DNA of 64,000 nt from Patescibacteria group bacterium (GTDB lineage: Bacteria; Patescibacteriota; Minisyncoccia; JAHISW01; Tagabacteraceae). The DNA is taken from assembly GCA_018819015.1 (NCBI GenBank), contig JAHJQY010000016.1, positions 18,064 through 82,063 of the forward strand, read 5' to 3'. Numbering within the stretch: the first letter of the stretch is position 1; every line of letters begins with the position of its first letter. The notes under the pieces were generated by a model. That model saw only the letters and a list, made by a program, of their open reading frames with translations. It did no database searches and had not been told where the DNA came from. Of the stretch, positions 1,474 through 63,145 are shown piece after piece. A program made the translations under genes and the position numbers.

Positions 1474-2541
1474 ATGAGAATATTAGCCATAGAAACTTCC
1501 TGCGACGAAACGGCAATAAGCGTTTTGAGCGCGGATAAAAAGGAATTTAAGATTTTATCCAACGTTATTTCCTCGCAGGTGAAAATACATGCCGAATGGG
1601 GCGGAGTGGTGCCCAGTTTGGCTAAGCGTGAACATCTTAAAAATTTGCCCGTTGTTTTAAAAAAAGCGCTGGCGCGGGCAAAAATTAAAAAACCAGAAAA
1701 AAAAATCAATCTTATCGCCGTTACCCAGGGTCCCGGGCTAGAACCAGCCTTATGGACAGGCATTAATTTTGCTGAAGAATTGGCGAAAAAATGGAGTAAA
1801 CCTTTAATACCCATAAACCACATGGAAGGGCATTTCTTTTCTGTTTTTCTTAAAAACAGAAAAGAGGGCGAACAGGAAATTCCAAAATTAGAATTTCCTG
1901 TTTTAGCCTTGCTAGTCAGCGGCGGACACACGGAATTAATTCTCGTAAAAGATTGGCTGAAATACAAAATTCTCGGACAAACCCGCGACGACGCCGCCGG
2001 TGAGGCCTTTGATAAAGTGGCGAAAATGATGAATTTGGGATACCCCGGAGGGCCTATTATCTCGAGACTCGCCAATGTTCGAAGTTCAACTTCGAACATT
2101 GAATTACCTAGGCCGATGATAAATTCAAAAGATTATGATTTTTCTTTTTCCGGCTTGAAAACCGCAGTTTTATATACTCTTAAAAAATTCCCAGTTGCCA
2201 ACTACAAATTACTAGCGCCCGGCATTTGCCGTGAATTTCAGCAGGCGGTAATTGATGTTTTGATTTCCAAAACAATACGGGCGGCCAAAGAATATAAAGC
2301 CAAAACTATTATAGTCGCAGGAGGTGTTGCCGCCAACAAAGAACTTCGCAAACAATTTGGACGAAAAATTAAAAAAGAACTGCCAATTACTAATTACTTG
2401 TTACCAATTACTAAGTTTTCAGGCGACAATGCGGCCATGATTGCTTTAGCCGCTTATTTTCGTTTCAAGGCAAATAAAAAATCCCATCAGTCACGGCTGA
2501 TGGGATTAAAAGCTCTTGGCAATTTAAAAATTAGTTATTAA
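1474..2541 (+). CDS. tsaD: tRNA N6-adenosine threonylcarbamoyltransferase TsaD (Kae1/Gcp family)
   Basis: Starts 'MRILAIETSCDETAISV' and contains 'GVAANKELR' and 'SGDNAAMIA', all hallmark TsaD motifs. The start was moved to the ATG at 1474. Carries the in-frame 27-nt palindrome at 2074-2100 (NVRSSTSNI). Confidence 0.9.
   Translation: MRILAIETSCDETAISVLSADKKEFKILSNVISSQVKIHAEWGGVVPSLAKREHLKNLPVVLKKALARAKIKKPEKKINLIAVTQGPGLEPALWTGINFAEELAKKWSKPLIPINHMEGHFFSVFLKNRKEGEQEIPKLEFPVLALLVSGGHTELILVKDWLKYKILGQTRDDAAGEAFDKVAKMMNLGYPGGPIISRLANVRSSTSNIELPRPMINSKDYDFSFSGLKTAVLYTLKKFPVANYKLLAPGICREFQQAVIDVLISKTIRAAKEYKAKTIIVAGGVAANKELRKQFGRKIKKELPITNYLLPITKFSGDNAAMIALAAYFRFKANKKSHQSRLMGLKALGNLKISY
2074..2100. 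repeat. 27-nt perfect palindrome, in-frame in tsaD (type copy of family 1)
   Basis: aatgttcgaagtt-c-aacttcgaacatt. Identical copies at 2889-2915 (valS) and 10293-10319 (SpoU). Variants at 45631-45657, 58419-58447, 62557-62585 and 59862-59910. Confidence 0.9.
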
Positions 2542-2792: not shown

Positions 2793-4808
2793 ATGTCAAG
2801 TTTCAACCAGCCATACGACCCAAAAGAGACTGAAGAAAAAATTTACAAGATTTGGGAAAAATCGGGCTTTTTTAACCCCGACAATCTCAATGTTCGAAGT
2901 TCAACTTCGAACATTGGTAAAAATTTTTCTATTGTTCTGCCGCCGCCAAATATCACCGGCTCGCTCCATATGGGCCATGCCCTCAACGCTACGATTCAAG
3001 ATATTTTAATACGCAAAAAAAGAATGGAAGGATTCAAAACCCTTTGGCTTCCGGGCACTGACCACGCCGGCATTGCCACGCAAAATGTCGTGGAAAAAAA
3101 TTTACTGAAAACAGAAAACAAAAGACGGCACGACTTAAGCCGAGAAAAATTCCTGGAAAAAATCTGGGAATGGAAAGAAAAATATGGCAATGAAATTTTA
3201 AACCAACTAAAAAAACTGGGGGCTTCCTGCGACTGGTCGCGAACCCGTTTCACCATGGATGAAGATTATCAAGAAAAAGTCCGTCAGGCCTTTCTGCATT
3301 ATTACAAAAAGGGCTGGATTTACCGCGCGGAAAAAGTAGTCAACTGGTGTGTCAAATGCCAAACTAGTTTATCTGACCTGGAACTGGAATACGAAGAAGA
3401 AAAAGGGAAACTATATTATATAAAATACCTGCCTGCCGGCAAGGCAGGTGGCCCAATAACCGTCGCAACAACAAGACCAGAAACAATGCTTGGAGACACA
3501 GCTGTTGCCGTCAACCCAAAAGACAAAAGGTATAAAAATTTAATAGACAAAAAAGTACTTTTACCAATTGTTGAAGAAGAAATTCCTGTTATCGCCGACG
3601 CAGCCGTAGAAAAAGAATTTGGCACCGGCGCAGTAAAGGTAACCCCGGCTCACAGCATAGTTGATTCTGAAATGGGAGAAAGACATGAATTGCCATCCAA
3701 AAAAATAATTAACGAATTTGGTAAAATGACTTTTGGAAAATACGCCGGGCTTTCCATCAAAGACGCGCGTGAACAAATTATTAAAGATTTGGGAAATAAA
3801 ATAGAGAAAATAGAAGACTATTCTCACAACCTCGCCACCTGTTATAGGTGCGGGAGTGTTATTGAAAATCTGCCCAGCCTGCAATGGTTTTTGAAAATGG
3901 ATCAACTGGCCAAAACAGCAATCAAAGCCGTCAAATCGGGCAAAGTGGTTTTTCATCCCAAGCGCTGGGAAAAAATTTATCTGGACTGGCTTTCCAACAT
4001 AAAAGACTGGTGCATTTCACGCCAAATCTGGTGGGGACACAAAATTCCCATTGAAAATTCAGAGGATGTTTTGGATACTTGGTTTTCGTCGGCTCTTTGG
4101 CCTTTTGCCACGATGAACAAAAAAGATATCAAAGAATTTTACCCGACCAATGTTTTGTCCACGGCTCGCGACATCATAAATCTCTGGGTGGCGCGCATGG
4201 TTTTTTCAGGAATTGAATTTGAAAAAAAAGCACCTTTCAAAAACGTATTAATTCATCCGACTATTTTAAACAAAGAAGGAAGAAAAATGTCCAAGTCGCT
4301 TGGAACAGGAGTGGATCCGATGAATTATATTGAAAAATACGGCGCGGATGCTACACGCTTCGGTCTAATCTGGCAGATGATGGGCAACCAGGATATACAC
4401 TGGGCCGAAGAACATGTTTTGGCCGGCAAGAAATTCTGCAATAAAATTTGGAATGCCAGTCGGTTTGTGCTAGCACAAAACGAAAATTACAAATTACAAA
4501 TTACAAATTCTAATGAACCAATATTAAAACAGTTAAATAAAATAATTAAATCAACCGACAAAAACATCGAACAATATCAATTTGGGCCGGCGCTTCATGA
4601 TTTATACAATTTTTTCTGGCGCGAATTTTGCGACAAATATATTGAGGAGTATAAAAAAAGCCAAGACAAAAACCCGGAAACGCTTTTATTGGTTTTAACG
4701 ACCTGCCTAGAACTTCTTCATCCTTTTATGCCGTTCATTACCGAAGAAATCTGGTCTAAATTACCCAACAGAAAAAATTTATTAATAATAGAAAAGTATC
4801 CAAAATAA
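2793..4808 (+). CDS. valS: Valyl-tRNA synthetase (short form lacking C-terminal coiled coil)
   Basis: Has HIGH-region 'PPPNITGSLHMGHAL', 'KMSKSLGTG' and the 'WCISRQIWWGHKIP' editing/CP1 signature. The start was moved to 'MSSFNQPY'. Contains the 27-nt palindrome at 2889-2915. Confidence 0.9.
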   Translation: MSSFNQPYDPKETEEKIYKIWEKSGFFNPDNLNVRSSTSNIGKNFSIVLPPPNITGSLHMGHALNATIQDILIRKKRMEGFKTLWLPGTDHAGIATQNVVEKNLLKTENKRRHDLSREKFLEKIWEWKEKYGNEILNQLKKLGASCDWSRTRFTMDEDYQEKVRQAFLHYYKKGWIYRAEKVVNWCVKCQTSLSDLELEYEEEKGKLYYIKYLPAGKAGGPITVATTRPETMLGDTAVAVNPKDKRYKNLIDKKVLLPIVEEEIPVIADAAVEKEFGTGAVKVTPAHSIVDSEMGERHELPSKKIINEFGKMTFGKYAGLSIKDAREQIIKDLGNKIEKIEDYSHNLATCYRCGSVIENLPSLQWFLKMDQLAKTAIKAVKSGKVVFHPKRWEKIYLDWLSNIKDWCISRQIWWGHKIPIENSEDVLDTWFSSALWPFATMNKKDIKEFYPTNVLSTARDIINLWVARMVFSGIEFEKKAPFKNVLIHPTILNKEGRKMSKSLGTGVDPMNYIEKYGADATRFGLIWQMMGNQDIHWAEEHVLAGKKFCNKIWNASRFVLAQNENYKLQITNSNEPILKQLNKIIKSTDKNIEQYQFGPALHDLYNFFWREFCDKYIEEYKKSQDKNPETLLLVLTTCLELLHPFMPFITEEIWSKLPNRKNLLIIEKYPK

Positions 4809-10085: not shown

Positions 10086-10535
10086 ATGTCTCAAAACAAA
10101 GAAATATATCTCATCCTCCACAACGTCCGCAGTCTGTATAATGTCGGCTCTATTTTTAGAACGGCTGATTGCGCCGGTGTGAAAAAAATTTTCCTGACCG
10201 GCTACACGCCGGAACCGGCTCCAAAAACCGCGCTCGGCGCGGAGAAAACCGTCCTTTGGGAAAAACACAAAAACATCTCCACCCTAATTTCCAATGTTCG
10301 AAGTTCAACTTCGAACATTAAAATAGTTGTGGTAGAACAAGACAAAAAAGCGATAAATTATAAAAATTTTAAACCAAAATATCCGCTAGTTTTAATTTTA
10401 GGCAATGAGGTGCGCGGGCTTTCCAAGCAAATCATCAAAAAATGCGACGCCATTATTGAAATCCCAATGAAGGGAAAAAAAGAATCTTTAAATGTGGCCG
10501 TGGCGGCCGGTATTATATTATTTTCTCTAAATTAA
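10086..10535 (+). CDS. SpoU/TrmH-family (SPOUT) RNA 2'-O-methyltransferase
   Basis: 'NVGSIFRTADCAGV' (motif 1) and 'LVLILGNEVRGL', 'IEIPMKG...SLNVAVAAGIILF' (SPOUT knot motifs). Contains the 27-nt palindrome at 10293-10319. Confidence 0.8.
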   Translation: MSQNKEIYLILHNVRSLYNVGSIFRTADCAGVKKIFLTGYTPEPAPKTALGAEKTVLWEKHKNISTLISNVRSSTSNIKIVVVEQDKKAINYKNFKPKYPLVLILGNEVRGLSKQIIKKCDAIIEIPMKGKKESLNVAVAAGIILFSLN

Positions 10536-10541
10536 ACTGAA

Positions 10542-11420
10542 TCAGTAGGCAACACTGCCAACTATATTACCTTCTTTATCCTGCACAATTATATTTTCCC
10601 ATTTGTCTCTCCACAATTCCGCGCTTCTGTTCAAATAAATTCTCCATTCTGGTTTATAAAAATCTGCGTCATTTTTATGCGCCTCAACACAAGAATTATA
10701 GCTTAAGATTTTATTTATACTTGTTACACATTGGTCATCCAAACCAAAAGGAATCGTGAAATTGGCCCGGCAACGCGCGAGAGTGTCTATATAAGACCGG
10801 CATTGGGGCTTAAGAGAAGCTGGCCATTGTTCGTCTTTAGGATAAGGGCATTCCTGCGGAAGATACGGTTCAAACTCGCGATTCTGACTAAAATAACCGG
10901 TGCATTTATTCAAACGGAAACTTTGCCCCAATGGGCTCTTGTCTGTAATAATGATAGCTTTATCTCCGGGGGACAAAATAATGTCACTTTCCGCATTGAC
11001 CTGATTACTAATAAATAAATTGGCCGCTTGCGGCAATTTCAAATCAAGACCCTGCTGGCCTTTTATAATCCAACCGGTTATATCCAGCCCTTGCTGATTG
11101 GATTTTGAAGCGCCTATTTCTATATATTCTTTTTGAGGATCAGTGTTTCTCGCGTTGCGCGTATACAAAGAAATTTTACCCTTGTCGCTTGCGTTGCTGC
11201 TGACTTTTTCGGCTGTGCCCGAATTTTCAAAAAAATCAGTTTTATCACTTTCAGAAATCTCAAAACTGCCGGACTTAGTCTGTTCAACATCAAGAAAAGG
11301 GCTTCGTGGCGCGCCCTGCTGAGGGCCGCCTTGTACAAACCAAATAACGCCTAAAATTATCAAAACAAGAAGTATTAACCCTATGTCTCTCCCTGGTTTT
11401 CTTATAATTTCATCCGCCAT
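10542..11420 (-). CDS. Hypothetical secreted or membrane-anchored protein
   Basis: 292 aa with an N-terminal TM/signal anchor. The remainder is a Cys-containing extracellular domain with no recognised motif. Confidence 0.4.
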   Translation of the reverse strand: MADEIIRKPGRDIGLILLVLIILGVIWFVQGGPQQGAPRSPFLDVEQTKSGSFEISESDKTDFFENSGTAEKVSSNASDKGKISLYTRNARNTDPQKEYIEIGASKSNQQGLDITGWIIKGQQGLDLKLPQAANLFISNQVNAESDIILSPGDKAIIITDKSPLGQSFRLNKCTGYFSQNREFEPYLPQECPYPKDEQWPASLKPQCRSYIDTLARCRANFTIPFGLDDQCVTSINKILSYNSCVEAHKNDADFYKPEWRIYLNRSAELWRDKWENIIVQDKEGNIVGSVAY

Positions 11421-20708: not shown

Positions 20709-20750
20709 ACTATATAACCATGTCCGGTCGGACATGGTTATATAGTGTTA
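20709..20750. repeat. Long hairpin element downstream of tsaE (aactatataaccatgtcc-ggtc-ggacatggttatatagtg)
   Basis: 18-bp near-perfect inverted repeat. A related 'actatatag...gttatatagtgtt' element occurs at 49636-49680. Confidence 0.6.
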
Positions 20751-26562: not shown

Positions 26563-26570
26563 TTAAAAAC

Positions 26571-26600
26571 AAATCCCGCCAATTGGCGGGATTTGTTTTT
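26571..26600. terminator. Bidirectional rho-independent terminator
   Basis: aaatcccgcc-aatt-ggcgggattt, a 10-bp stem flanked by T-runs on both strands. It overlaps the tyrS stop. Confidence 0.7.
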
Positions 26601-27795
26601 ACCCAAAAACCAACTTAACAAAAACTTTCTTCCCAACCCGGACAACACCGGGATTTATTATTTTGAAATGAATATCACTTATTGCCTCACCATTAAAATC
26701 AATCGCTCCGTCTTTTATAAGTCTGCGAAATTCCATGTTGGAAGAAATTATATTATTAAACAAAAGCGCGTCTTTTAATTCACTGTCTTTTTTAACAATA
26801 ATTTCTTTGGCATCTTCCGGCAACTCTCTTTTTTGAAAAGTTTTTATAAAATTATCTTGGGCTTGTTTAGTTTTTTTCTCTCCAAAAAACAATTTGATAA
26901 TTTCGTGAGCCGCAATTTTTTTAGCCTCCATTTTATCTCCCATTTTTTTAATTTTTTCCACCTCCGGTAAAGGTAGACGAGTATTGTTAACCAGAAAAAT
27001 TTCCGTCATCTCGTCGGGCTGAGACATAATGGCGCCAAACATTTCTCTTGGCGCTAAATCAAGAAAAACTCCGGTGCCACGGCTTTTGGACATCATCTCA
27101 CCAGTCTTGGGGTTTTCCATTAAATTAACCACCAAAACAAACTTATTTTTATTTTTAAATTTTTTTAACAATGTCCGGCCAACCAAAGCGTTAAAAATTT
27201 GATCCGTGCCGCACATTTCCACATCAACATCCAATTCAACACTGTCATAACCCTGCATCAATGGATATAAAAACTCGTGAAGATAAATGGGCTTATTTTC
27301 CGTCATTCTTTTTTGGAACATATCCCGGCCCAACAGCTGCTGGATAGTCAGATTTGAAGCTAAATCCACCACTTTCTCAAAACGAAGTTTGGAAAGCCAT
27401 TTATTATTATATAAAACTTTGGGTGGATTATTTTTATCCTTAAAATCCATCAGGGGACTAATTTGTTCTAGCCACCCCTTAACATTTTCCTTAATTTCAT
27501 CCGAAGAAAGCTGTTTTCTGCCTTCGCTTTGGTCTGTCGGGTCGCCAATTCTGGCGGTAAAATCACCTACCAAAACTATAACTTCGTGACCCAGTTGACG
27601 GAATTCCTCCAAAAGCAAATAATTTTTGGCATGGCTCAAATGAAGAGAAGGAGAAGTCGGATCAGCCCCGATATAAAATCTCAAACATTGACCGCTCAAA
27701 AGTTTATCTTTAAATTCTTTCAAAGAAGGGATAGCGTCTACAATCACGCCCCTGTTTAGAATTTCGTCAATTTTTTTCTCATCTTTTTTTATCAT
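26599..27795 (-). CDS. tyrS: Tyrosyl-tRNA synthetase
   Basis: Class I motifs 'PTSPSLHLSHA' and 'KMSKS', plus a C-terminal S4-like domain. Confidence 0.8.
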   Translation of the reverse strand: MIKKDEKKIDEILNRGVIVDAIPSLKEFKDKLLSGQCLRFYIGADPTSPSLHLSHAKNYLLLEEFRQLGHEVIVLVGDFTARIGDPTDQSEGRKQLSSDEIKENVKGWLEQISPLMDFKDKNNPPKVLYNNKWLSKLRFEKVVDLASNLTIQQLLGRDMFQKRMTENKPIYLHEFLYPLMQGYDSVELDVDVEMCGTDQIFNALVGRTLLKKFKNKNKFVLVVNLMENPKTGEMMSKSRGTGVFLDLAPREMFGAIMSQPDEMTEIFLVNNTRLPLPEVEKIKKMGDKMEAKKIAAHEIIKLFFGEKKTKQAQDNFIKTFQKRELPEDAKEIIVKKDSELKDALLFNNIISSNMEFRRLIKDGAIDFNGEAISDIHFKIINPGVVRVGKKVFVKLVFG

Positions 27796-30043: not shown

Positions 30044-31147
30044 TTATATATTCTTCATCGGCATAATCAAACAAAAAAAAGATTTATCATCTAAGCTTGT
30101 TATTAAAAGTGGTTTTCCTTCTCCGTTAAATTTTAAAATAATTTTTTCAGAATTTACAGAAGATAAACAGTCAATTAAATAACGGTGATTAAAAACCATC
30201 ATTAGATCATCTCCCTCTGTTTCTGTTTTAATATTCACAGTGTGTTCTCCTAAATCAGGGTTGTTAGTTTGAACTTCTAGAAAATTTTCATCTTTGTAAA
30301 TTTTTAACTTTACTTCGTTTAATTTTCCGCGGAATATTGCCGAACTTTTTAAACAATTATTAAATTCTTTTTTGTTAACTATTGCTGTGTTGGTAAAATC
30401 AACGGGAATAATTTGTTTATAATCAATAAAATTTCCATCAGTTAAACGAGTTGTAAATTCAATATTATCGTTTTCTAAAATTAAATTGTTGTCGTCTGTT
30501 TTTATTACAATGTCTCCTTCTTGATTTTCAAAAATTCTTAATATTTCAACCGCGCTCCGATAAGGTATTAAAATATTGGGAAAATTTGAAAAATTATAAG
30601 GAATTGTTTTTTCAGATAAACGAAAAGAGTCTGTGGCAACAAAAGTTAAAGGTGTTTTTACTGAAGAAAACAATAAAATACTATTTATTTCCGGCTTAAT
30701 TTCTGACAATGAAGCTGAACAATAAACCGACTTTAAACCTGATATAAAATCATTAACAGAAACAATAAAAGAATTTTTTTCTTTTATTGTTGGCAATAAA
30801 GGAAAATCCTCCACAAGATAACCTTTTATGGTTGTTGAACTGTTTTTTGTTGTAATAATTAAATTATCTTTAATACTGTCTAGTTTTATTTCATTATGGT
30901 CTGGCAAAGAAGAAATAAGGCTGCAAAAAAGCTTAGAAGGTAGGGCGACTTTTCCCTCTTTTTCTATTTTTGCGGGTATTGAAATTTTTAAAGCTATTTC
31001 AAGATTAGTATTAAAAAAAACTAAAGAATTTTTATTGGCAGAAATTAAGACTGCGTTTAAAATCGGCAAGGTTGGATTACGATTAGGTATTTTTTCGCTT
31101 AACAACCCCGCTTTTTGTAAATAATGTTTTAAACAAGTTGCCTTCAT
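30044..31147 (-). CDS. dnaN: DNA polymerase III beta sliding clamp
   Basis: 367 aa, immediately downstream of dnaA, with a typical N-terminus 'MKATCLKHYLQKA'. Confidence 0.85.
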   Translation of the reverse strand: MKATCLKHYLQKAGLLSEKIPNRNPTLPILNAVLISANKNSLVFFNTNLEIALKISIPAKIEKEGKVALPSKLFCSLISSLPDHNEIKLDSIKDNLIITTKNSSTTIKGYLVEDFPLLPTIKEKNSFIVSVNDFISGLKSVYCSASLSEIKPEINSILLFSSVKTPLTFVATDSFRLSEKTIPYNFSNFPNILIPYRSAVEILRIFENQEGDIVIKTDDNNLILENDNIEFTTRLTDGNFIDYKQIIPVDFTNTAIVNKKEFNNCLKSSAIFRGKLNEVKLKIYKDENFLEVQTNNPDLGEHTVNIKTETEGDDLMMVFNHRYLIDCLSSVNSEKIILKFNGEGKPLLITSLDDKSFFCLIMPMKNI

Positions 31148-31345
31148 AATTAATTTAATATTTATTTAAATAATTTATTATTATTATTAAACATGTGGAT
31201 ATTGTTGATAACTTGAATTTGATTTGTAAAATTAAAGAATAAAAACATTTTTTAATTTAATAATTTGTTGATAAATATTTTATTAATCGTTGATATGTTA
31301 TTAATATAATAAATCCAATAATAACTTATAAACCAATTATCAACA
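31148..31345. promoter_or_regulatory. Candidate oriC: AT-rich dnaA-dnaN intergenic region with DnaA boxes
   Basis: Four to five TTATCCACA-like boxes, each 8/9 match: tgtggatat (31193-31201), tgttgataa (31203-31211), tgttgataa (31266-31274) and ttatcaaca (31337-31345). Confidence 0.6.
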
Positions 31346-32722
31346 TTATTTATACAAACAATCCCTTATTTTTTGTATCTCATCTTTTATTTGATAGTTG
31401 TTTTTTATATCTTTTGAGATTTTTTCATAAGCATGAATTGCTGTTGTGTGGTCTCTGCCTCCAAGTTTTTTTCCAATATATGGATAAGAAGCGTTAAAAT
31501 CTTCTCTTAATAAATACATTATAATTTGCCTTGGTAAAACATATTCTTTTCTTCTTGATTTTTCAAAAATAAATCTTTCTTCTATTTCATAAAAATCGCC
31601 TATAGTTTTAATTATTTTATTAAATGTTATTTTTTTCTTTGAATAAATAATGTTTTTATTGAATATTTCTTTTAATTCCTGGGTGGATAAATTTTTACCA
31701 AGAAGTTTTGATTGAGCCAATAGAAGATTTAAGGCACCCTCAAGCTCCCGCACATTGTTTTTTATTGTTGAAGCAATATAATTTATTGTTTCTTCCGACA
31801 AGTCAATATCTTTTGTTTGTAGTTTTGATTTTAAAATAGCTATTCTTGCTTCATATTCCGGTTCTGATATATCAGCCATCATTCCTCCTTCAAATCTAGA
31901 CCTTAATCTTTCTTCTAGATCAAGTATTGATTTTGGCGATCTGTCTGAGGAAAAAATAATTTGCTTATTTTTTTCATATAAAGAATTAAAAATATGAAAA
32001 AGTTCTTCTTGTGTTTTTGTTTTACCTGATAAAAATTGGATATCATCTATTATTAATAAATCATATTTTTTATAACCTTCTTTGAATTCATGTATTGTGT
32101 TGTTTTGTATTGAAGATATGAGCATGTTGGCGAATTTTTCCAAAGTCGTGTATTTTATTTGAGATTTTTCATTATCTTCTTTTATTTTATTGCCGATAGC
32201 TTGTAATAAATGAGTTTTACCCAAACCAACCCCTCCATATATAAATAATGGGTTATATGTTGTTCCTGGATTTTTTATCACAGCCACGGCGGCGGCATGA
32301 GCCAGTTCATTAAATGAACCAACTATAAAATCATTAAAAGTATAGCGGGGATTTAACGACTCTTTTGTTTCGTGGAATTCTTTAAATTCCATTTGTTGGC
32401 TTTCTTCTGTTTTTTGCGGCATTAATTTAATTGTCGAGATTTTTTCACAGATAGGCTTTATTTTATTACTAACAATATATTCTGTATCTTTGATTGACGG
32501 GTCTATTTTTCGTAAAGCGCTTATTATAAATTTATTATATTTGTTTTTTACCCATTCTTTACTGAAACTGTTCGGCACACCTATAAAAACAATGCCGTTT
32601 TCAGTTTTTTCTATATTGGTGTTTTTTAACCAGGTAACAAAATTAGCTTTTGATATAAGCATTTCCAATTCATTGAGTGTTTTTTCCCAGATTTGTCCTT
32701 TTTCTGTTTGTTGGGTATCCAT
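31346..32722 (-). CDS. dnaA: Chromosomal replication initiator DnaA
   Basis: 'GGVGLGKTHLLQAIGN', 'DDIQFL', and a C-terminal HTH 'LGGRDHTTAIHAYEKI'. Confidence 0.95.
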   Translation of the reverse strand: MDTQQTEKGQIWEKTLNELEMLISKANFVTWLKNTNIEKTENGIVFIGVPNSFSKEWVKNKYNKFIISALRKIDPSIKDTEYIVSNKIKPICEKISTIKLMPQKTEESQQMEFKEFHETKESLNPRYTFNDFIVGSFNELAHAAAVAVIKNPGTTYNPLFIYGGVGLGKTHLLQAIGNKIKEDNEKSQIKYTTLEKFANMLISSIQNNTIHEFKEGYKKYDLLIIDDIQFLSGKTKTQEELFHIFNSLYEKNKQIIFSSDRSPKSILDLEERLRSRFEGGMMADISEPEYEARIAILKSKLQTKDIDLSEETINYIASTIKNNVRELEGALNLLLAQSKLLGKNLSTQELKEIFNKNIIYSKKKITFNKIIKTIGDFYEIEERFIFEKSRRKEYVLPRQIIMYLLREDFNASYPYIGKKLGGRDHTTAIHAYEKISKDIKNNYQIKDEIQKIRDCLYK

Positions 32723-32841
32723 GTTTTGATTATAGCTTAATAAGAGAACAGACGTAAAATCGTCTAAATTGGTTATATGTTAACAATCTGTGTATTATTT
32801 GTGAATATTGCTTTTTGGTGATTATAATTTATAATAAAAAC

Positions 32842-32976
32842 ATGTCTGTTACCTATCAACCAAAAAAAAGAAAAAGGAAAAAAACTCACGGTTTTTTAAA
32901 AAGATCAAAAACTCCGGGCGGAAGAAATATTTTGAAAAACAGAAGGAGAAAAAATAGAAAGAAATTAACAGTCTAG
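32842..32976 (+). CDS. rpmH: 50S ribosomal protein L34
   Basis: [44 protein letters not shown], 44 aa, in the conserved position upstream of rnpA. Too short for the ORF track. Confidence 0.9.
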
Positions 32977-32985
32977 TTTAATGGC

Positions 32986-33324
32986 ATGTTGCCTTTTTTG
33001 AATAGGTTAAAAAAAGAAGACTTCAAATTATTAAAAAATTTTAAAAAAAAATTTTTTGTTTCCGATAATATTAATTTGAAGCTGTATTATTCCGGTTTCA
33101 ATCCAAGTCGTTTTTCTGTTGTTGTTCCGACAAGTTTTTCAAAGAAGGCGACAAAAAGAAATAAAATAAAAAGACAAACAAAAGCGGCTCTTTTGAATTA
33201 TTTAAAAAAAATTGAACCCGGCTTTGCTTCTGTTTTTTATTTTAAAAAAGAAACAAAAAATCTTTCTTTTGAAGAAATAAAAAAAGAGATATTGTTTCTT
33301 TTAAAAAAATCTAAAATTTTATGA
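32986..33324 (+). CDS. rnpA: RNase P protein component
   Basis: 112 aa and basic, with 'KRNKIKRQ'. Sits in the rpmH-rnpA-yidC context. Confidence 0.8.
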   Translation: MLPFLNRLKKEDFKLLKNFKKKFFVSDNINLKLYYSGFNPSRFSVVVPTSFSKKATKRNKIKRQTKAALLNYLKKIEPGFASVFYFKKETKNLSFEEIKKEILFLLKKSKIL

Positions 33325-45600: not shown

Positions 45601-45670
45601 CGCCCTTTTTCCGCCCCCATGTGGATAATCAATGTTCGAAGTTCAACTTCAATCATTGGCGTGCGGGGGA

Positions 45671-49592: not shown

Positions 49593-49606
49593 TTTCTTTT
49601 TTAGTA

Positions 49607-49634
49607 TCTGTGGGAGGTCGGACCTCCCACAGAT
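49607..49634 (+). terminator. Perfect 13-bp stem hairpin downstream of pilB
   Basis: tctgtgggaggtc-g-gacctcccacaga. Confidence 0.6.
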
Positions 49635-57817: not shown

Positions 57818-58712
57818 AGGTGTGTACATGGCTTTGGCCACGGCTTTTGTCAGCGGTTTCGCAGTTTTTTTTAATAAATTTGCCGTCGATTTTTGGCAGA
57901 ATTCTTCGGTTTTTACAACCGGCAAAAATTTAGTGGCTGCGTTGTTTTTAACTTCTCTTATTTTATTGTTAAAAAAGAGAACCGAGTTGAAAAATTTAAC
58001 CAAAAAACAGTGGTTGCAGCTGGTTGTTATTGGTTTTGTCGGCGGTTCGGTTCCTTTTCTTTTGTTTTTTAAAGGATTGTCGCTTGCCTCGGCGGTTAAC
58101 GCCGCTTTTATTCATAAAACATTGTTTGTTTGGGTCGCGTTTTTGGCTGTTTTGTTTCTTAAAGAAAAAACTTCTGTTTTGCAGTGGTTGGCACTGGCTG
58201 TTCTTTTTGCGGGAGTTTATCTTTTTTCTTCGCCCGGCGATTTTAAAATTGGTTACGGAGAAATTTTAGTTTTTGGCGCCACTTTAATATGGGCTGTTGA
58301 AAATATAATTGCCAAAAAGGTTTTAGAAAATATTTCTGCGCTGGTTGTGGGGTGGGGCAGGATGTTTTTCGGGTCGTTTTTTCTTTTGGTTTATCTAGTT
58401 GCGACTGGCGATATTGTCCAACTATTGAAGTTCAACTTCAATAGTTGGGGCTGGTTGGTTTTAAGCGGCGCGATTCTTTTTGGCTATGTCGTCACCTGGT
58501 ATTCGGCTCTAAGGCGCGCGCCGGCCACAGTGGTTTCTTCAATTTTGGTTCTGGCGGCGCCGATTACCGCTTTGCTAAATTCTATTTTTATAACCCATCA
58601 ATTTAAAATTTCTTTGCTTTGGCCGACGGTCTTGATTTTGACCGGAGTTTTATTAGTCAGCGGATTATATGGATGGTTTAGAACTTTTTATCAAGTACGC
58701 CCTGCCTCCTAA
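57807..58712 (+). CDS. EamA/DMT-family transporter
   Basis: About 10 TM helices in two EamA repeats. Contains a 29-nt palindrome at 58419-58447. Confidence 0.7.
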   Translation: MKNKGVYMALATAFVSGFAVFFNKFAVDFWQNSSVFTTGKNLVAALFLTSLILLLKKRTELKNLTKKQWLQLVVIGFVGGSVPFLLFFKGLSLASAVNAAFIHKTLFVWVAFLAVLFLKEKTSVLQWLALAVLFAGVYLFSSPGDFKIGYGEILVFGATLIWAVENIIAKKVLENISALVVGWGRMFFGSFFLLVYLVATGDIVQLLKFNFNSWGWLVLSGAILFGYVVTWYSALRRAPATVVSSILVLAAPITALLNSIFITHQFKISLLWPTVLILTGVLLVSGLYGWFRTFYQVRPAS

Positions 58713-59609: not shown

Positions 59610-60827
59610 TTAGTGTACAGAACAAGTAATACATGGATCATAGGCCCGGACGAGCATCTCAAGTAGGCGCTCTTTTTCTTTTTGGGTTTTTTCTTTGTTT
59701 TGCTCCAAAAGCGCGTTAGCGCTTTTTTCTATGGAGGTAAGGTTTTGCACGGTTGGAGTGATAATGTTGGCGTAGGTGATAATGCCTTTGTTGTTCCAGC
59801 GCAGTTCATGGTAAAGCCCGCCGCGCGGGGCTTCTATTGCGCCTATACCCTCGCTTGCGTAAACATCGAAGTCCGACTTCGATGTTCCATCGAAGTCGGA
59901 CTTCGATGCAAGTAATTGTTCTAAAATTTTTCCGGCTTGTTTGTGATAAAGCAAAATTTCAATGGCCTGCGCGATATTGTTATGGAAAGGATTTTGAAAA
60001 TCTAGGATTTCTTTTTCTTTGTGGTCGGAAAAATAAAGCCGGGCCAGCGCGCCAACCATTATTTCTCGGCCCTTATAGCCGCCAAATTTGGCAGTGGAAT
60101 AGTTTCTGATTTCCTCGGTAATAACTTCTTTATAATTTTTTATAGAAGGGTTTACCCTGAGCGGAGTCGAAGGGTCGTTTTTGTTTGATAAAATTTTTTC
60201 TTTCTTTTGGGTTACTAGCTCTAAATCAACTTTTAGTTCCGGAAATTTAATTTTTGAGCAGATATTCAAGGCGCGACCAGCCGACGCTCTTGTTTGTTTG
60301 ATTTTTTGGAGCAGTTTTTCCAATTGTTCTCTAGTCGGAATTTTATGAAAACCGCCGATGGTGGTGGTTGTCGGGTGGACGTTGCGGCCGGCCACGACAG
60401 CCGCGATGTCATCGGAGACTTCTTTTATATCCAGCGCGGCCTTAAAATCTTTTGGATTTTTTTGGGCCAGCTCGGTGCCGCGGTCTATTCCCAGATAGTC
60501 CGGCAAAGACAAAAAGAATAAATGAAGAGCGTGGCTTTGCATCATTTGGGCGCAGACCATCAATTCGCGAAGGAGTTCTGTTGTTTCGCTGATTTCAATT
60601 TTCAGGCCATCCTCGCAAGCGCGCAAAGAGGCCAGATTATGGGCGATAGGGCAGACGCCGCAGATGCGCGGGGTTATCCAGTGGCTTTCTTCAATGGTTC
60701 GGCCGACCAGCAATCCTTCAAAAAGCCGCTCGCCTTCGTGAATATGCAGTTTGACTTGGCTCTTGGAAAAATCAGTTTCCAAGCTACCGTGTCCCTCAAT
60801 TTTCGCGATATATTTATCGGTGATCAT
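59610..60827 (-). CDS. [NiFe]-hydrogenase large subunit, group 3 (sulfhydrogenase alpha-like)
   Basis: 'KIEGHG' at the N-terminus, L1 'RICGVCPIAH', and L2 'DPCITCSVH' as the very C-terminus with no extension. Contains tandem in-frame palindromes at 59862-59910 and a family-2 repeat at 60155-60174. Confidence 0.85.
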   Translation of the reverse strand: MITDKYIAKIEGHGSLETDFSKSQVKLHIHEGERLFEGLLVGRTIEESHWITPRICGVCPIAHNLASLRACEDGLKIEISETTELLRELMVCAQMMQSHALHLFFLSLPDYLGIDRGTELAQKNPKDFKAALDIKEVSDDIAAVVAGRNVHPTTTTIGGFHKIPTREQLEKLLQKIKQTRASAGRALNICSKIKFPELKVDLELVTQKKEKILSNKNDPSTPLRVNPSIKNYKEVITEEIRNYSTAKFGGYKGREIMVGALARLYFSDHKEKEILDFQNPFHNNIAQAIEILLYHKQAGKILEQLLASKSDFDGTSKSDFDVYASEGIGAIEAPRGGLYHELRWNNKGIITYANIITPTVQNLTSIEKSANALLEQNKEKTQKEKERLLEMLVRAYDPCITCSVH

Positions 60828-61588
60828 TTTTCATTTTTATTATAAAACATCGTGAAATATCTTTTTATTTCTTCTTCGTCGGCGAATTTTTTGAGGGCTT
60901 GTTTTAATCCTTCAACATTGGCTTCTTCGCGTGGGCCGAAACAGCCGTAGCAGGGCGAGCCGCCGGAAATACAGATGGCCTGGCATCCGCCTTGCGTTAT
61001 CGGGCCCAGGCAGATTTTTTTGTTTATAATGCGGCATTCATTGCCGGCTCGCTTGCAGTCAAAGCAGACCGAGTATGGCCGGTAACTCGGTTTTTTGCCG
61101 GCCAAAAGTTCTTCAAAAATTCTTTCCAGCTCGCCGGCATTAACCGGACAGCCATGAATAGCAAAATCCACCTTGACATAAGCGCTAAGCGGTAAAGCGT
61201 CAATTCCTTTCGGCTTGTACACTTGCCCTGAGCTTGTCGAAGGGTATATTTTTTTGTACCACCCGGCGCGTTTTTCTTGGTCCATAATTCCCGGTATCCC
61301 CGCCAGCGCGGCGCAGGCGCCGAGCGCGATGACATATTGGGAGTTTTCGCGAAGCCATTTCAAGGTGTCAATTTCATCTTGGGTGATGGGCGCTCCTTCA
61401 ATAAGCGCAATGTCAAAATATTTATCCTGAGCAGAGTCGAAGGATTTTCGTTCTTGCCCCAGCCGCCAGTCAACAATGTCAACTTGTTTTTCCAAATCCA
61501 AAAATCGTTCGCGAAGAGAAATTATTTCCACTTCGCACCCCTCGCAGTCGGTAAAATCATAGATGGCTACTTTAGGTTTTAATCCCAT
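60824..61588 (-). CDS. [NiFe]-hydrogenase small subunit, group 3 (delta-like)
   Basis: 'DFTDCEGCE', 'GACA' and 'HGCP' proximal-cluster cysteines, plus a C-terminal Cys-rich region for additional FeS clusters. Confidence 0.8.
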   Translation of the reverse strand: MGLKPKVAIYDFTDCEGCEVEIISLRERFLDLEKQVDIVDWRLGQERKSFDSAQDKYFDIALIEGAPITQDEIDTLKWLRENSQYVIALGACAALAGIPGIMDQEKRAGWYKKIYPSTSSGQVYKPKGIDALPLSAYVKVDFAIHGCPVNAGELERIFEELLAGKKPSYRPYSVCFDCKRAGNECRIINKKICLGPITQGGCQAICISGGSPCYGCFGPREEANVEGLKQALKKFADEEEIKRYFTMFYNKNEK

Positions 61589-62394: not shown

Positions 62395-63145
62395 AATACA
62401 GGCATTTCCAATTTCCCAGCGACAAGTCTTCCGCCCGCGTTTTTTCCGGAATTCCGCATTCTCTCAGTGTTTCTATTGATATATTAAGATTGTTTTTCAG
62501 CATCTTTCTTTTTTGGGAAAATCCTTTTTTAATCAGATTAAAAAATTTTTGTTCATCAATGATGGAAGTTGAACTTCCATCATTGAAAAAATTTTTGGAA
62601 ATGTTGTTTATTTTAATTACGGCCGAATCAACTTTCGGCGTTGGCGAGAAATTGCCGGCCGGCACTTTTTTTATAATTTTCGGCTGGCCGTAGGCATTTA
62701 CGCTTAACGATAGTATGCTGGCTTTTTTGTCGCGCATTACGATTCTCTCGGCTACTTCTTTTTGAATCATCAGAACCATCAGCGATGGCTGGTGTTCCGC
62801 GCCTAGAAATTGCCGCAGGAAATGCGAAGTGATGTAATAAGGAATGTTTGCCACAATTTTGAAATTTTTTATCCTGAGCTTGTCGAACGGATTGAATCTT
62901 AAAATATCGTCTTGGATAATTTCAAGATTTTTGGCGCCGGAAAATTTCTGTTTTAAAAATTCAACAAGCGATGGATCTTTTTCAACCGCGATAACTTGGC
63001 CGGCTTTGGCCAAAAGTTTTTCGGTCAGGATTCCTTTACCCGGACCGACCTCCAAGATGATGTCGTCCTTTTTTATTTCGGCGGCCTCAATAATTTCTTC
63101 GGCTATTTTTTTGTTTTGTAAAAAATTTTGTCCCAGTTTGGCCAT
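62381..63145 (-). CDS. rsmA: 16S rRNA (adenine1518/1519-N6)-dimethyltransferase
   Basis: 'MAKLGQNFLQN', 'EVGPGKGILT' and 'VANIPYYITS'. The start was trimmed to the canonical Met. Contains a palindrome at 62557-62585 and a family-2 repeat at 62871-62892. Confidence 0.85.
   Translation of the reverse strand: MAKLGQNFLQNKKIAEEIIEAAEIKKDDIILEVGPGKGILTEKLLAKAGQVIAVEKDPSLVEFLKQKFSGAKNLEIIQDDILRFNPFDKLRIKNFKIVANIPYYITSHFLRQFLGAEHQPSLMVLMIQKEVAERIVMRDKKASILSLSVNAYGQPKIIKKVPAGNFSPTPKVDSAVIKINNISKNFFNDGSSTSIIDEQKFFNLIKKGFSQKRKMLKNNLNISIETLRECGIPEKTRAEDLSLGNWKCLYFAVL

What the first reader, a model, noticed from the sequence alone, without database searches (positions are those of the whole stretch)
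59862..59910. Tandem pair of palindromes inside the NiFe-hydrogenase large subunit gene
'aacatcgaagtc-c-gacttcgatgtt' is followed directly by 'catcgaagtc-g-gacttcgatg'. Together they duplicate the peptide TSKSDFD/GTSKSDFD in the large subunit. A tandem element in a catalytic subunit suggests recent duplication of the palindromic element. It also shows that a surface segment of this group-3 large subunit tolerates insertions.
Basis: seen in the sequence. Interest (0 to 1): 0.6.

Follow-up and report, generated by a model that had tools for sequence, protein, structure and literature searches.

The report
Inherited double hairpin inside hydrogenase gene
Two adjacent perfect DNA palindromes in a hydrogenase gene of an ultra-small (Patescibacteria) bacterium are mirror-image copies forming one long hairpin, part of a family of short palindromes that occupy flexible surface loops of many essential genes in these bacteria and apparently persist at the DNA level while the protein only tolerates them.

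Summary
Window 59862-59886 and 59888-59908 are two perfect odd-centred palindromes in the group 3b [NiFe]-hydrogenase large-subunit gene. The second unit is the exact reverse complement of the first (centre C versus G). Together they form a 21+3+21 nt perfect inverted repeat encoding ASKSDFDG/TSKSDFDV.

It is not a recent slippage duplication. A relative with 78% protein identity (L108) carries the same pair. Every member of the clade has a palindrome centred on the same codons, and the arms differ between lineages while staying complementary.

It is a DNA-level feature:
- All 10 same-arm pairs found in 1.43 Mb are inverted.
- Their spacing is often not a multiple of three.
- The same core (TCGAAGTY-S-RACTTCGA) recurs in TsaD, ValRS, SpoU, KsgA and EamA genes of the window, and in other genes of other genomes.

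The pair lies in a low-confidence loop that varies in length among orthologues. It mostly replaces loop residues: +2 aa net against 15 codons of palindrome.

My best reading is a self-maintaining nested hairpin, made by fold-back copying and kept perfect by arm-to-arm template switching. That mechanism is inferred, not shown. A REPIN-like mobile element, or a selected RNA or DNA structure, remains possible. I found no description of this in Patescibacteria.

The parts
59888..59908 (-). Unit 1 in gene orientation. Perfect palindrome CATCGAAGTC-c-GACTTCGATG on the sense strand, encoding (A)SKSDFD(G), residues about 307-314.
   Evidence: (I9).
59862..59886 (-). Unit 2 in gene orientation. Perfect palindrome AACATCGAAGTC-g-GACTTCGATGTT on the sense strand, with 12-nt arms. 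It is the reverse-complement copy of unit 1 and encodes (G)TSKSDFDV, residues about 314-322.
   Evidence: (I8).
59864..59908 (.). The long perfect inverted repeat: 21-nt arms and a 3-nt spacer, 45 nt = 15 codons. It is the predicted minimum-energy fold of the single strand.
   Evidence: I1. RNA MFE -38.9 kcal/mol, z -8.35. DNA -27.3 kcal/mol, z -9.55.
59610..60827 (-). Host gene: group 3b [NiFe]-hydrogenase large (alpha) subunit, 405 aa, with intact RICGVC and DPCITC motifs.
58418..58448 (+). Family member in the EamA transporter gene: CCAACTATTGAAGTT-c-AACTTCAATAGTTGG (QLLKFNFNSW). It belongs to the same sub-family as the hydrogenase-loop palindromes of L109, L001 and L002, and of L096 4352-4380.
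62556..62586 (-). Family member in the KsgA/RsmA gene: TCAATGATGGAAGTT-g-AACTTCCATCATTGA (NDGSSTSII).
2073..2101 (+). Family member in the TsaD gene: CAATGTTCGAAGTT-c-AACTTCGAACATTG (NVRSSTSNI).
2888..2916 (+). An identical 29-mer in the ValRS gene, also encoding NVRSSTSNI.
10293..10319 (+). The same element (27 nt) in the SpoU-family methyltransferase gene, also encoding NVRSSTSNI.
45630..45658 (.). Imperfect copy of the same element (CAATGTTCGAAGTT-c-AACTTCAATCATTG), lying between ORFs.
49606..49634 (.). Related core with a compensated change (ATCTGTGGGAGGTC-g-GACCTCCCACAGAT), 14 nt after the stop codon of a PilB-like gene. Family membership is uncertain.

Best explanation
The feature is a nested inverted repeat, a 'hairpin of hairpins'. 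A short perfect palindrome and its reverse-complement copy sit 3 nt apart in a disordered surface loop of the hydrogenase large subunit. It is a DNA-level structure, and the protein merely tolerates it.

Proposed history and mechanism:
1. A half-site was copied in inverted orientation by fold-back (snap-back or template-switch) synthesis, giving a palindrome. In the clade's simplest form (L111), the left arm is the host codons for the end of the helix (LLKS) and the right arm is their complement (DFNN).
2. The whole palindrome was later copied again in inverted orientation, giving the pair. This explains why the centres are C and G.
3. A mutation in one arm is either reverted or copied to the other arm, by intrastrand template switching or gene conversion. 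The arms therefore drift between lineages but stay perfectly complementary.
4. Copies with the same core also appear in unrelated genes, probably by ectopic templated copying or conversion. Only copies that land in frame in permissive loops survive.

What is shown: the anatomy, the inheritance, the independence from reading frame, the dispersal, the covariation and the loop location. What is inferred: the copying and maintenance mechanism, and the absence of a cellular function.
For: Anatomy:
- The second unit is the exact reverse complement of the first, with 21-nt arms at 100% complementarity (I1).
- The minimum-energy fold is one long hairpin.

Inverted copying, not slippage:
- 10 of 10 adjacent same-arm pairs in 1.43 Mb have reverse-complemented centres, and none is direct.
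- In L109, unit 1 has an innermost C.A mismatch and unit 2 has the complementary T.G. So unit 2 copies unit 1 including its defect.

Inherited and maintained:
- L108, at 78% aa identity, has the same pair.
- Codon identity at identical residues is 12/13 inside the pair, against 147/282 outside it.
- Window, L108, L109, L110, L001, L002 and L111 all have a palindrome centred on the same codons. The arms differ between them but are perfect or nearly perfect in each.
- Across 21 distinct family members, 90.1% of cells are paired against 73% in shuffles. Ten of 14 pairs show changes on both sides. That is 53 compensated cells against 18.8 expected, reached by 0 of 500 shuffles. Slid controls give 29-46% pairing.

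DNA level, not peptide level:
- Centre spacing is not a multiple of 3 in 5 of 10 pairs.
- The L108 loop-1 pair is read in two different frames.

Replacement in permissive loops:
- The window loop is 58 aa against a mode of 56.
- 17 of 21 perfect palindromes found in 68 hydrogenase genes fall in two loops.
- The loop has low pLDDT and is coil.
- The TsaD and ValRS loops that carry palindromes are not longer than in relatives.

In-situ signature elsewhere:
- A TsaD palindrome has a left arm that encodes the conserved SVFL. It recurs at the same site with compensated sequence in L001, L004 and L012.

Precedent:
- Template switching corrects imperfect inverted repeats to perfect ones, and such repeats are conserved in Proteobacteria (PMC5941160).
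- Perfect 'coding palindromes', maintained by a proposed conversion mechanism, occur in Nematomorpha mitochondria (PMC6649704).

No RNA-specific signal:
- Mismatches on the sense strand of coding quasi-palindromes are G.T 15 against A.C 11.
Against: - Identical 27-29-nt palindromes in three unrelated genes of the window (2073, 2888, 10293), and in further contigs (L096, L099, L105), are hard to produce by local fold-back. The same holds for the identical 25-mer AACATCGAAGTCGGACTTCGATGTT in an unrelated intergenic context (L088). These copies need inter-locus copying, whose mechanism I did not identify.
- The near-identity of the pair between window and L108 at synonymous sites goes beyond what arm-to-arm conversion alone predicts. 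That process lets both arms drift together. The near-identity could instead mean selection on the sequence, or homogenisation against other family copies.
- The core GAAGTY-S-RACTTC is conserved across genomes whose hydrogenases are only 62-78% identical. This suggests recognition by some factor.
- No replication or repair gene content was examined, so I could not ask why this lineage would be prone to template switching.
- Palindrome density is lineage-specific, not general in Patescibacteria.
Confidence: 0.45

Rival explanations
1. It is a REPIN-like non-autonomous mobile element. A short hairpin (REP-like unit) and its inverted doublet are excised and inserted as single-stranded DNA by an enzyme encoded elsewhere in the genome. 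The enzyme could be a RAYT/IS200-type HUH transposase or an unknown one that recognises the conserved apex GAAGTY-S-RACTTC. Copies survive only in frame in permissive loops.
For: - Dispersed identical copies occur in unrelated genes and contigs.
- The same core pair occurs at a second site of the L108 hydrogenase gene, where the window has an 'empty' site. It also occurs in an oxidoreductase gene of L015.
- The apex is conserved while the lower stem varies.
- The doublets are always inverted, as in REPINs (PMC3116915, PMC3337134).
- There is no target-site duplication, as for IS200/IS605-type elements (own knowledge).
Against: - There is no GTAG or CGTC tag at the unit ends (the criterion is from PMC3733652).
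- The location is intragenic, not extragenic.
- The arms are perfect, whereas REPs are imperfect.
- Sites show replacement with little or no net length gain, rather than clean insertion.
- In L002 and L111 the left arm coincides with conserved host codons.
- tblastn with IS608 TnpA and a RAYT-like sequence found nothing in 1.43 Mb.
- There are no copies in viral contigs.
Confidence: 0.22
2. It is a selected nucleic-acid structure. One option is an mRNA hairpin: a 21-bp stem could be an RNase III substrate, a decay barrier, or a translational pause before the active-site strand. The other is a DNA cruciform that serves gene expression. Covariation would then reflect purifying selection on pairing.
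For: - The predicted hairpin is very stable.
- Its position is conserved across the clade, with compensated arm changes.
- Synonymous-site conservation is elevated between window and L108.
- The same hairpin type sits in a terminator-like intergenic position with A6/T6 flanks in L088, so such hairpins can be functional.
Against: - Most orthologues (37 of 68 at the modal length, including non-Patescibacteria) have no hairpin there.
- Hairpins come and go, with unrelated sequences in different lineages.
- The same elements occur in many unrelated housekeeping genes.
- There is no G.U excess on the sense strand.
- No U-tract follows the hairpin and no terminator was called there.
- There is no Rfam family; the only hit is RsaJ at 19 bits against a threshold of 100.
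- Near-universal perfection of the arms fits active correction better than selection, the argument made in PMC6649704.
Confidence: 0.13
3. The conserved core is a recognition sequence that spreads by molecular drive rather than insertion. It could be a DNA-uptake signal for the competence and type IV pilus machinery, or a site for a chromosome-organising protein of the parS or Noc-site kind. Such motifs accumulate by substitution in the least constrained parts of proteins.
For: - The pattern is replacement without length change, in permissive loops, with a preferred reading frame: NVRSSTSNI in 5 of 6 long ORFs.
- Intergenic copies look like terminators, as with paired uptake sequences in Neisseria (own knowledge).
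- The window encodes type IV pilus genes and the dnaA-dnaN origin region but has no canonical parS.
- Isolated CGAAGTC half-sites are mildly enriched: 13 against 3.4 expected, with 4 of them inside the pair.
Against: - The variable arms stay complementary. A fixed recognition sequence does not predict this.
- Density is low, about one core per 7-10 kb.
- Other lineages carry unrelated palindromes at the same loops.
- No binding or uptake protein was identified.
Confidence: 0.08
4. It is an ordinary slipped-strand tandem duplication of 24 nt, giving a duplicated peptide that may matter to the protein.
For: - The units are a 24-nt direct repeat, 95% identical over the 21-nt core (D2; 20 of 21 positions).
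- The peptide SKSDFD is duplicated.
Against: - The single difference within the core is exactly the central base, changed to its complement. Inverted copying predicts this.
- 10 of 10 comparable pairs are inverted.
- The pair is shared with L108, so it is old.
- The same DNA pair is read out of frame elsewhere.
- The loop is disordered and hypervariable.
Confidence: 0.03
5. It is an assembly or amplification artefact, such as a fold-back chimera.
For: Fold-back chimeras are known from amplified metagenomic DNA (own knowledge).
Against: - The reading frame stays open and the flanking motifs are intact.
- The same structure is present in independent assemblies from different projects and samples: L108, L109, L110, L001, L002, L003, L007 and others.
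- A protein record with the identical sequence exists in the JGI collection (P0001).
Confidence: 0.01

Closest known systems
[quoted passage not shown]
   Same: Perfect inverted repeats sit inside functional protein-coding genes. They are gained and lost between species. Their all-or-none perfection suggests active arm-to-arm correction. A parasitic or neutral character was proposed, with template switching as the candidate mechanism.
   Different: Those are organellar, up to 284 bp, unique to each site, and cover conserved protein regions. The elements here are 21-45 nt, bacterial and confined to variable loops. They are often nested as pairs and fall into dispersed families with a shared core.
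REP sequences and REPIN doublets mobilised by RAYT transposases (PMC3116915, PMC3337134, PMC3733652)
   Same: Units are 20-40-nt palindromes. The replicating form is an inverted doublet that folds into one long hairpin. There are many dispersed copies per genome, no target-site duplication, and long vertical persistence.
   Different: REPs are extragenic, imperfect, and carry a GTAG or CGTC tag. They co-occur with a RAYT gene. Here the units are intragenic, perfect and untagged, and no RAYT-like gene was seen (weak test).
Rickettsia palindromic elements (RPEs), as reviewed in PMC10969869
   Same: They are palindromic repeat families found in frame inside unrelated housekeeping genes of a reduced-genome bacterium, at positions compatible with the protein fold.
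   Different: RPEs are about 100-150 bp, add 30-50 residues, are imperfect, and decay with time. The elements here are 5-10 times shorter, perfect, and mostly replace loop residues rather than adding them.
Quasipalindrome-associated template-switch mutagenesis and conservation of perfect inverted repeats in Proteobacteria (PMC5941160, PMC7202029)
   Same: This mechanism converts imperfect inverted repeats to perfect ones and can create inverted copies of neighbouring sequence. It predicts the conservation of perfection seen here.
   Different: It is described for short local repeats. It has not been described as producing nested pairs, dispersed families, or systematic occupation of protein loops.
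DNA uptake sequences (USS/DUS) of Pasteurellaceae and Neisseriaceae (own knowledge)
   Same: These are short motifs that accumulate by replacement in poorly constrained parts of proteins. They show reading-frame preferences, and inverted pairs act as terminators between genes.
   Different: Uptake sequences have a fixed, asymmetric sequence and about ten-fold higher density. They do not show covarying complementary arms.
Double-hairpin elements of Allomyces mitochondrial DNA and translationally bypassed palindromic inserts of Magnusiomyces (own knowledge; the latter is cited in PMC6649704)
   Same: They are small mobile two-hairpin or palindromic elements found within genes.
   Different: They are organellar and longer. 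The Magnusiomyces inserts are skipped by the ribosome, whereas here the element is in frame without stop codons and is presumably translated.

Membership tests
REP / REPIN | Palindromic unit of about 20-40 nt | tested here: met
   The units are 21-31 nt.
REP / REPIN | Two units in inverted orientation forming one long hairpin | tested here: met
   (I1). Ten of 10 pairs are inverted. The MFE fold is one long hairpin.
REP / REPIN | Extragenic location | tested here: not met
   The pair and most family members lie inside long ORFs.
REP / REPIN | GTAG or CGTC tetranucleotide at one end (PMC3733652) | tested here: not met
   The flanks and ends of all window copies lack it. The ends read CAAT.., CAAC.., AACA...
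REP / REPIN | Cognate RAYT (Y1 HUH transposase) gene in the genome | tested here: inconclusive
The genomes are incomplete and the queries approximate.
Rickettsia palindromic elements | Element of about 100-150 bp encoding a conserved peptide of tens of residues | tested here: not met
   The elements are 21-45 nt and encode 7-15 residues.
Rickettsia palindromic elements | In-frame presence in unrelated housekeeping genes | tested here: met
   Hosts are the hydrogenase, TsaD, ValRS, SpoU methylase, KsgA and EamA genes.
MITE | Terminal inverted repeats flanked by a target-site duplication | tested here: not met
   No direct repeat flanks any of the copies aligned. The whole element is the inverted repeat.
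Coding palindromes (Nematomorpha type) | Perfect inverted repeat embedded in a functional coding sequence | tested here: met
   The ORF is intact with its catalytic motifs.
Coding palindromes (Nematomorpha type) | Both arms encode conserved regions of the protein; repeats are unique to each site | tested here: not met
   The arms lie in a hypervariable loop, and the sequence family is dispersed.
Intrinsic transcription terminator | G+C-rich hairpin followed by a U-tract | tested here: not met
   The scan called no terminator at 59862-59908, and the sense strand continues GUUUACGC. The related L088 copy does have A6/T6 flanks.
Known RNA families (Rfam 15) | Match at or above the family gathering score | tested here: not met
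   Only tRNAs were found in the window. The local scan gave RsaJ at 19.1 bits against a gathering score of 100.
Group 3b [NiFe]-hydrogenase large subunit (host gene) | NiFe-binding CxxC motifs at both termini and closest similarity to the sulfhydrogenase alpha subunit | tested here: met
   The motifs are RICGVC (C56, C59) and DPCITC (C399, C402), invariant in alignment A1. The best solved relatives are 9e1j_B and 9e15_B at E about 1e-62 and TM 0.85.
Group 3b [NiFe]-hydrogenase (operon) | Adjacent small (delta) and diaphorase (gamma, beta) subunits | tested here: inconclusive
   Delta (PF01058) and gamma (FAD/NAD/Fe-S domains) lie directly upstream. No beta-type subunit was identified next to them; the next gene is KsgA.

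The most novel reading that the evidence does not exclude
Patescibacteria carry a previously undescribed class of ultra-short (about 21-31 nt) perfect-palindrome replicators. They overwrite surface loops of essential genes, multiply by recursive inverted copying (half-site to palindrome to palindrome pair), move between genes, and keep themselves perfect by self-templated repair. They would be the smallest self-maintaining genetic elements described in bacteria, and a general source of loop diversity in proteins of these organisms.
Probability: 0.35. Interest if true: 0.8.

Novelty: new variant of a known kind. Interest (0 to 1): 0.62.

Why it matters
If this reading holds, three things follow.

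First, part of the sequence and length variation in surface loops of Patescibacteria proteins is driven by a DNA-level process, not by selection on the protein. That affects alignment, phylogeny and dN/dS analyses of these genomes, because clustered differences at such sites are not independent events.

Second, it gives a natural bacterial example in which perfect hairpins up to 21 bp (and longer in relatives) persist inside essential genes. That makes two questions testable: how reduced genomes handle hairpin-prone DNA, and whether template switching is elevated when repair genes are lost.

Third, the recursive inverted-copy architecture and the dispersed families link three separate literatures: REPINs, Rickettsia palindromic elements and mitochondrial coding palindromes. 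They may point to a common mechanism.

For the hydrogenase itself the consequence is modest. It identifies two loops (after ARL, about residues 264-275, and 307-324) that accept arbitrary sequence.

Tried and rejected
- Slippage duplication: rejected by the centre-flip rule and by inheritance.
- Protein-level repeat: rejected by the out-of-frame pairs.
- Known RNA family: none.
- Terminator: none called at the site.
- Canonical parS: absent from the window, so this neither supports nor excludes a parS-like role.
- Phage origin: no match in viral contigs.
- RNA wobble signature: G.T 15 against A.C 11, no signal. The sample is noisy because it includes chance quasi-palindromes.
- Codon position of palindrome centres: positions 1/2/3 = 6/18/13, not informative.
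- A general Patescibacteria-wide excess of intragenic perfect palindromes: 46 per Mb against 28 per Mb in non-Patescibacteria loci. This is unconvincing, and the phenomenon is lineage-specific.
- Locating the window's own contig by exact protein look-up failed.
- The Ga0180009 contigs carrying the main family do not overlap the window, so I cannot say they are the same genome.
- Many metagenome hits to the degenerate pattern were a different repeat, AACTTCGAAGTT-S-AACTTCGAAGTT in MDSW contigs. I set them aside.
- Half-site enrichment is mild and could reflect codon usage.
- Position of the loop relative to the small subunit could not be computed, because no coordinates are returned.
- Literature searches for palindromes in coding sequences of Patescibacteria or the Candidate Phyla Radiation found nothing.
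Full report
**1. The observation**

The sequence is as described. On the plus strand, 59862-59886 reads AACATCGAAGTC-C-GACTTCGATGTT and 59888-59908 reads CATCGAAGTC-G-GACTTCGATG. The 21-mer CATCGAAGTCSGACTTCGATG occurs exactly twice in the window, where shuffles give none.

The repeat finder adds the key point. The two units are exact reverse complements of each other: 21-nt arms, 100% complementary, 3 nt apart (I1). They are also a 24-nt direct repeat, 95% identical over the 21-nt core (D2), and the only difference within that core is the central base.

Both units lie in the 405-aa minus-strand ORF 59610..60827. They encode A307-V322, ASKSDFDG TSKSDFDV.

The ORF is a [NiFe]-hydrogenase large subunit (PF00374). 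Its best solved relatives are the alpha subunit of Pyrococcus furiosus sulfhydrogenase I and the Thermococcus kodakarensis cytosolic hydrogenase, at E about 1e-62 and TM 0.85. The delta and gamma subunits and HypC are adjacent. The 120 closest proteins in the database are almost all from Patescibacteria metagenome-assembled genomes. Group 3b hydrogenases are known in that group (PMC7304191, PMC10811913).

**2. It belongs to a family**

A relaxed search for the core GAAGTC-S-GACTTC (up to 2 mismatches) gives 9 sites in the window, against 0.62 expected. All are odd-centred palindromes, eight of the nine perfect (the intergenic copy is not). Their arms differ from copy to copy but stay complementary:
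- An identical 27-29-mer, (C)AATGTTCGAAGTT-C-AACTTCGAACATT(G), sits in the TsaD, ValRS and SpoU-methylase genes. It encodes NVRSSTSNI in all three.
- An imperfect copy of that element lies between genes.
- Variants sit in the EamA (58418-58448) and KsgA (62556-62586) genes.
- A GGAGGTC-G-GACCTCC version lies just after a PilB-like gene.

A metagenome scan found the main element in six more contigs of one sample. It also found the exact hydrogenase-type 25-mer, AACATCGAAGTCGGACTTCGATGTT, in another sample (L088). In L088 it lies between a pilin-like gene and a prepilin-peptidase-like gene, with A6/T6 flanks, like a terminator.

The window holds about 12 perfect palindromes with arms of 11 nt or more, where shuffles give none. 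Nearly all are inside long ORFs.

**3. The loop in orthologues**

In 68 hydrogenase genes, the distance from the NPFHNN motif to EAPRG is 56 aa in 37 cases, and those 37 have no palindrome there. The window has 58 aa.

A minority of Patescibacteria lineages carry long perfect palindromes in this same loop, with unrelated sequences. Several are nested pairs of exactly the window's architecture: L003, L007, L021, L012 and L013.

A second loop, after the ARL motif, is also hit (L012, L013, L014, L015, L032, L047, L108). Of 21 perfect palindromes found within these genes, 17 fall in the two loops.

The structure model places residues 308-324 in coil, between helix 280-307 and the strand that carries the conserved EAPRG arginine. 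The 10-residue pLDDT block 311-320 averages 58, against 87 and 90 for its neighbours. However, the palindromes largely replace loop residues rather than adding to them.

**4. The pair is old and is kept at the DNA level**

I fetched the DNA of the closest relatives. The findings for each are:
- L108 (78% aa identity) has the same pair, GCA TCG AAG TCC GAC TTC GAT ... TCG AAG TCG GAC TTC GA, one codon shorter, with the same C-then-G centres.
- L109 has a pair with centres CGA and TCG. Its unit 1 carries an innermost C.A mismatch and its unit 2 the complementary T.G. The second unit is therefore a reverse-complement copy of the first, defect included, and the long repeat is the one that stays paired.
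- L001 and L110 have partly decayed pairs.
- L002 has a single perfect palindrome with 14-nt arms.
- L111 has a single AT-rich perfect palindrome, ATTATTAAAATC-g-GATTTTAATAAT, in a loop of modal length. Its left arm is the helix-end codons LLKS and its right arm is their complement, DFNN.

Every member of the clade thus has a palindrome centred on the same codons, with different but internally complementary arms.

Between window and L108, codons of identical residues are identical in 12 of 13 cases inside the pair, against 147 of 282 elsewhere.

Across 21 distinct family members the covariation is strong:
- 90.1% of cells pair, against 73% in shuffles.
- 10 of 14 pairs have changes on both sides.
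- There are 53 compensated cells against 18.8 expected, reached by 0 of 500 shuffles.
- Slid controls pair at 29-46%.

One caveat: the members were picked by a core pattern, so the inner six pairs are partly constrained by the choice. The outer eight were not.

**5. Inverted copying, and independence from the reading frame**

In all 10, the centre of the second unit is the reverse complement of the first, and none is direct. Two triplets with mixed orientation exist (L038, L041).

Centre-to-centre spacing is a multiple of three in only 5 of the 10 pairs.

L108 has a second pair of the same core at the other loop of the same gene, spaced 20 nt apart, so the two units are read as EVGLR and SKSDFE. 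The window has an unoccupied site there, YFSDHKEKEILDF. The net gain in L108 is 6 aa for an element of about 35 nt.

L015 carries the same core pair in an oxidoreductase gene.

The peptide duplication in the window is therefore a by-product of a 24-nt spacing.

**6. Other in-situ cases**

TsaD has a palindrome whose left arm encodes the conserved SVFL after HMEGH and whose right arm encodes KNRKE. It recurs at the same place, with compensated sequence, in L001, L004 and L012.

The TsaD loop after RLA and the ValRS N-terminal loop, both of which carry NVRSSTSNI, are not longer than the corresponding loops of relatives.

**7. Mechanism**

The single strand folds into one long hairpin: RNA -38.9 kcal/mol (z -8.35) and DNA -27.3 kcal/mol (z -9.55).

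I favour a DNA-level, self-maintaining structure with three properties:
- It is created by fold-back (inverted) copying applied twice.
- It is kept perfect by template switching or conversion between the arms.
- It is filtered by selection, so that only in-frame copies in permissive loops remain.

Template switching is the documented route from imperfect to perfect inverted repeats in bacteria, and perfect repeats are conserved beyond expectation in Proteobacteria (PMC5941160, PMC7202029). The same argument was made for the perfect coding palindromes of Nematomorpha mitochondria (PMC6649704).

What this does not explain well is the dispersal of identical 25-29-mers to unrelated genes, or the conservation of the core across genomes. 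Those observations keep a REPIN-like, enzyme-mobilised element in play (PMC3116915). Such an element would share the inverted doublets and the lack of a target-site duplication. However, the GTAG/CGTC tag, the extragenic location and the imperfect stems of REPs are all absent (PMC3733652). A crude search for IS200/RAYT-like genes also found nothing.

A selected RNA structure is disfavoured for four reasons:
- Most orthologues have no hairpin there.
- The same elements sit in many unrelated genes.
- There is no G.U excess on the sense strand.
- There is no Rfam family or terminator call.

An uptake-signal or binding-site drive would explain replacement, loop preference and frame preference. It would not explain the covarying arms.

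**8. Novelty**

Searches of the held literature found Rickettsia palindromic elements, REPINs, template-switch work and the Nematomorpha coding palindromes. They found nothing on palindromes inside coding sequences of Patescibacteria.

I classify the finding as a new variant of a known kind: intragenic palindromic repeats, or coding palindromes. Four features set it apart:
- very short perfect units;
- recursive inverted pairing;
- replacement of loop residues;
- dispersed families.

The broader intuition, a palindromic element in a tolerant surface loop, is.

Noticed in passing
window 2073-2101, 2888-2916, 10293-10319: An identical 27-29-nt perfect palindrome, (C)AATGTTCGAAGTTCAACTTCGAACATT(G), sits in frame in the TsaD, ValRS and SpoU-methylase genes. 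It encodes NVRSSTSNI each time. Further copies occur in contigs L084, L086, L096, L099, L104 and L105 of one metagenome.
   Followed up: partly
window 1835-1865; L001 1464-1501; L012 13784-13811; L004 3366-3391: A second TsaD palindrome, TCTTTTCTGTTTTT-ctt-AAAAACAGAAAAGA, has a left arm encoding the conserved SVFL after HMEGH. The same site carries a palindrome with compensated sequence in three other genomes.
   Followed up: partly
window 19949-19975: A perfect palindrome, GCCAAAATTTTG-tat-CAAAATTTTGGC, encodes AKILIQNFG inside a 781-aa ORF. The ORF looks like DNA polymerase I (5'-nuclease helix-hairpin-helix motif) by eye; I did not test this.
   Followed up: no
window 5331-5365, 30761-30791, 62525-62545: Further perfect palindromes with 10-15-nt arms lie inside long ORFs. 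One (62525-62545) lies 10 nt from the KsgA family member.
   Followed up: no
window 61236-61260 and 61436-61460: The hydrogenase small-subunit gene carries two direct copies, 200 nt apart, of CCTTCGAC..GCTCAGG(G/A)(C/T)AA, read as PSTSSGQV and SFDSAQDK. The peptide FDSAQGKP also appears in the large-subunit loop of another genome (P0024/L079).
   Followed up: no
window 20709-20746 and 26564-26601: Two long perfect palindromes (18- and 19-nt arms) lie at gene ends, the second between convergent genes. They are probably terminators.
   Followed up: no
window about 30044-32722 and 32722-32986: dnaN- and dnaA-like ORFs are followed by rnpA/yidC-like ORFs, so the replication origin region probably lies in the window. 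No canonical parS (TGTTTCACGTGAAACA with 2 or fewer mismatches) is present anywhere in the window.
   Followed up: partly
L108 884-916: The hydrogenase gene of the closest relative has a second nested pair of the same core at the loop after ARL, read in two different frames. The window has no element there.
   Followed up: yes
L015 19447-19480 and L015 7527-7553 / 10775-10799: The same core pair lies in a 305-aa pyridine-nucleotide-disulfide-oxidoreductase-like ORF. Another palindrome, CACTTGGAAGCG-t-CGCTTCCAAGTG, is present in two different genes of that contig, one of them the hydrogenase.
   Followed up: partly
L007 1393-1456, 8495-8556, 9812-9885, 15523-15587; L038 3882-3928: Very long perfect palindromes (23-37-nt arms) lie between genes. 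They share motifs such as CAAGGAC-N-GTCCTTG with intragenic palindromes of L012, L001 and L038.
   Followed up: no
L011 10985-11041, L012 12930-12986, L015 16772-16825: An AT-rich direct-repeat stretch, AAAATTAAAAATTTAAAATTAAAAATT, encoding KIKNLKLKIKN occupies the ValRS loop in two genomes and a TsaD loop in a third. Non-palindromic repeats therefore also colonise the same loops.
   Followed up: no
window 59610-59612 (gene end): The large subunit ends at the histidine of DPCITCSVH. It has no C-terminal extension for a maturation endopeptidase.
   Followed up: no
L081, L085, L089-L094, L097-L103, L107 (MDSW and other contigs): A different repeat, AACTTCGAAGTT-S-AACTTCGAAGTT, is partly in tandem arrays in unrelated metagenome contigs. 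It matched the degenerate search pattern but looks unrelated.
   Followed up: no
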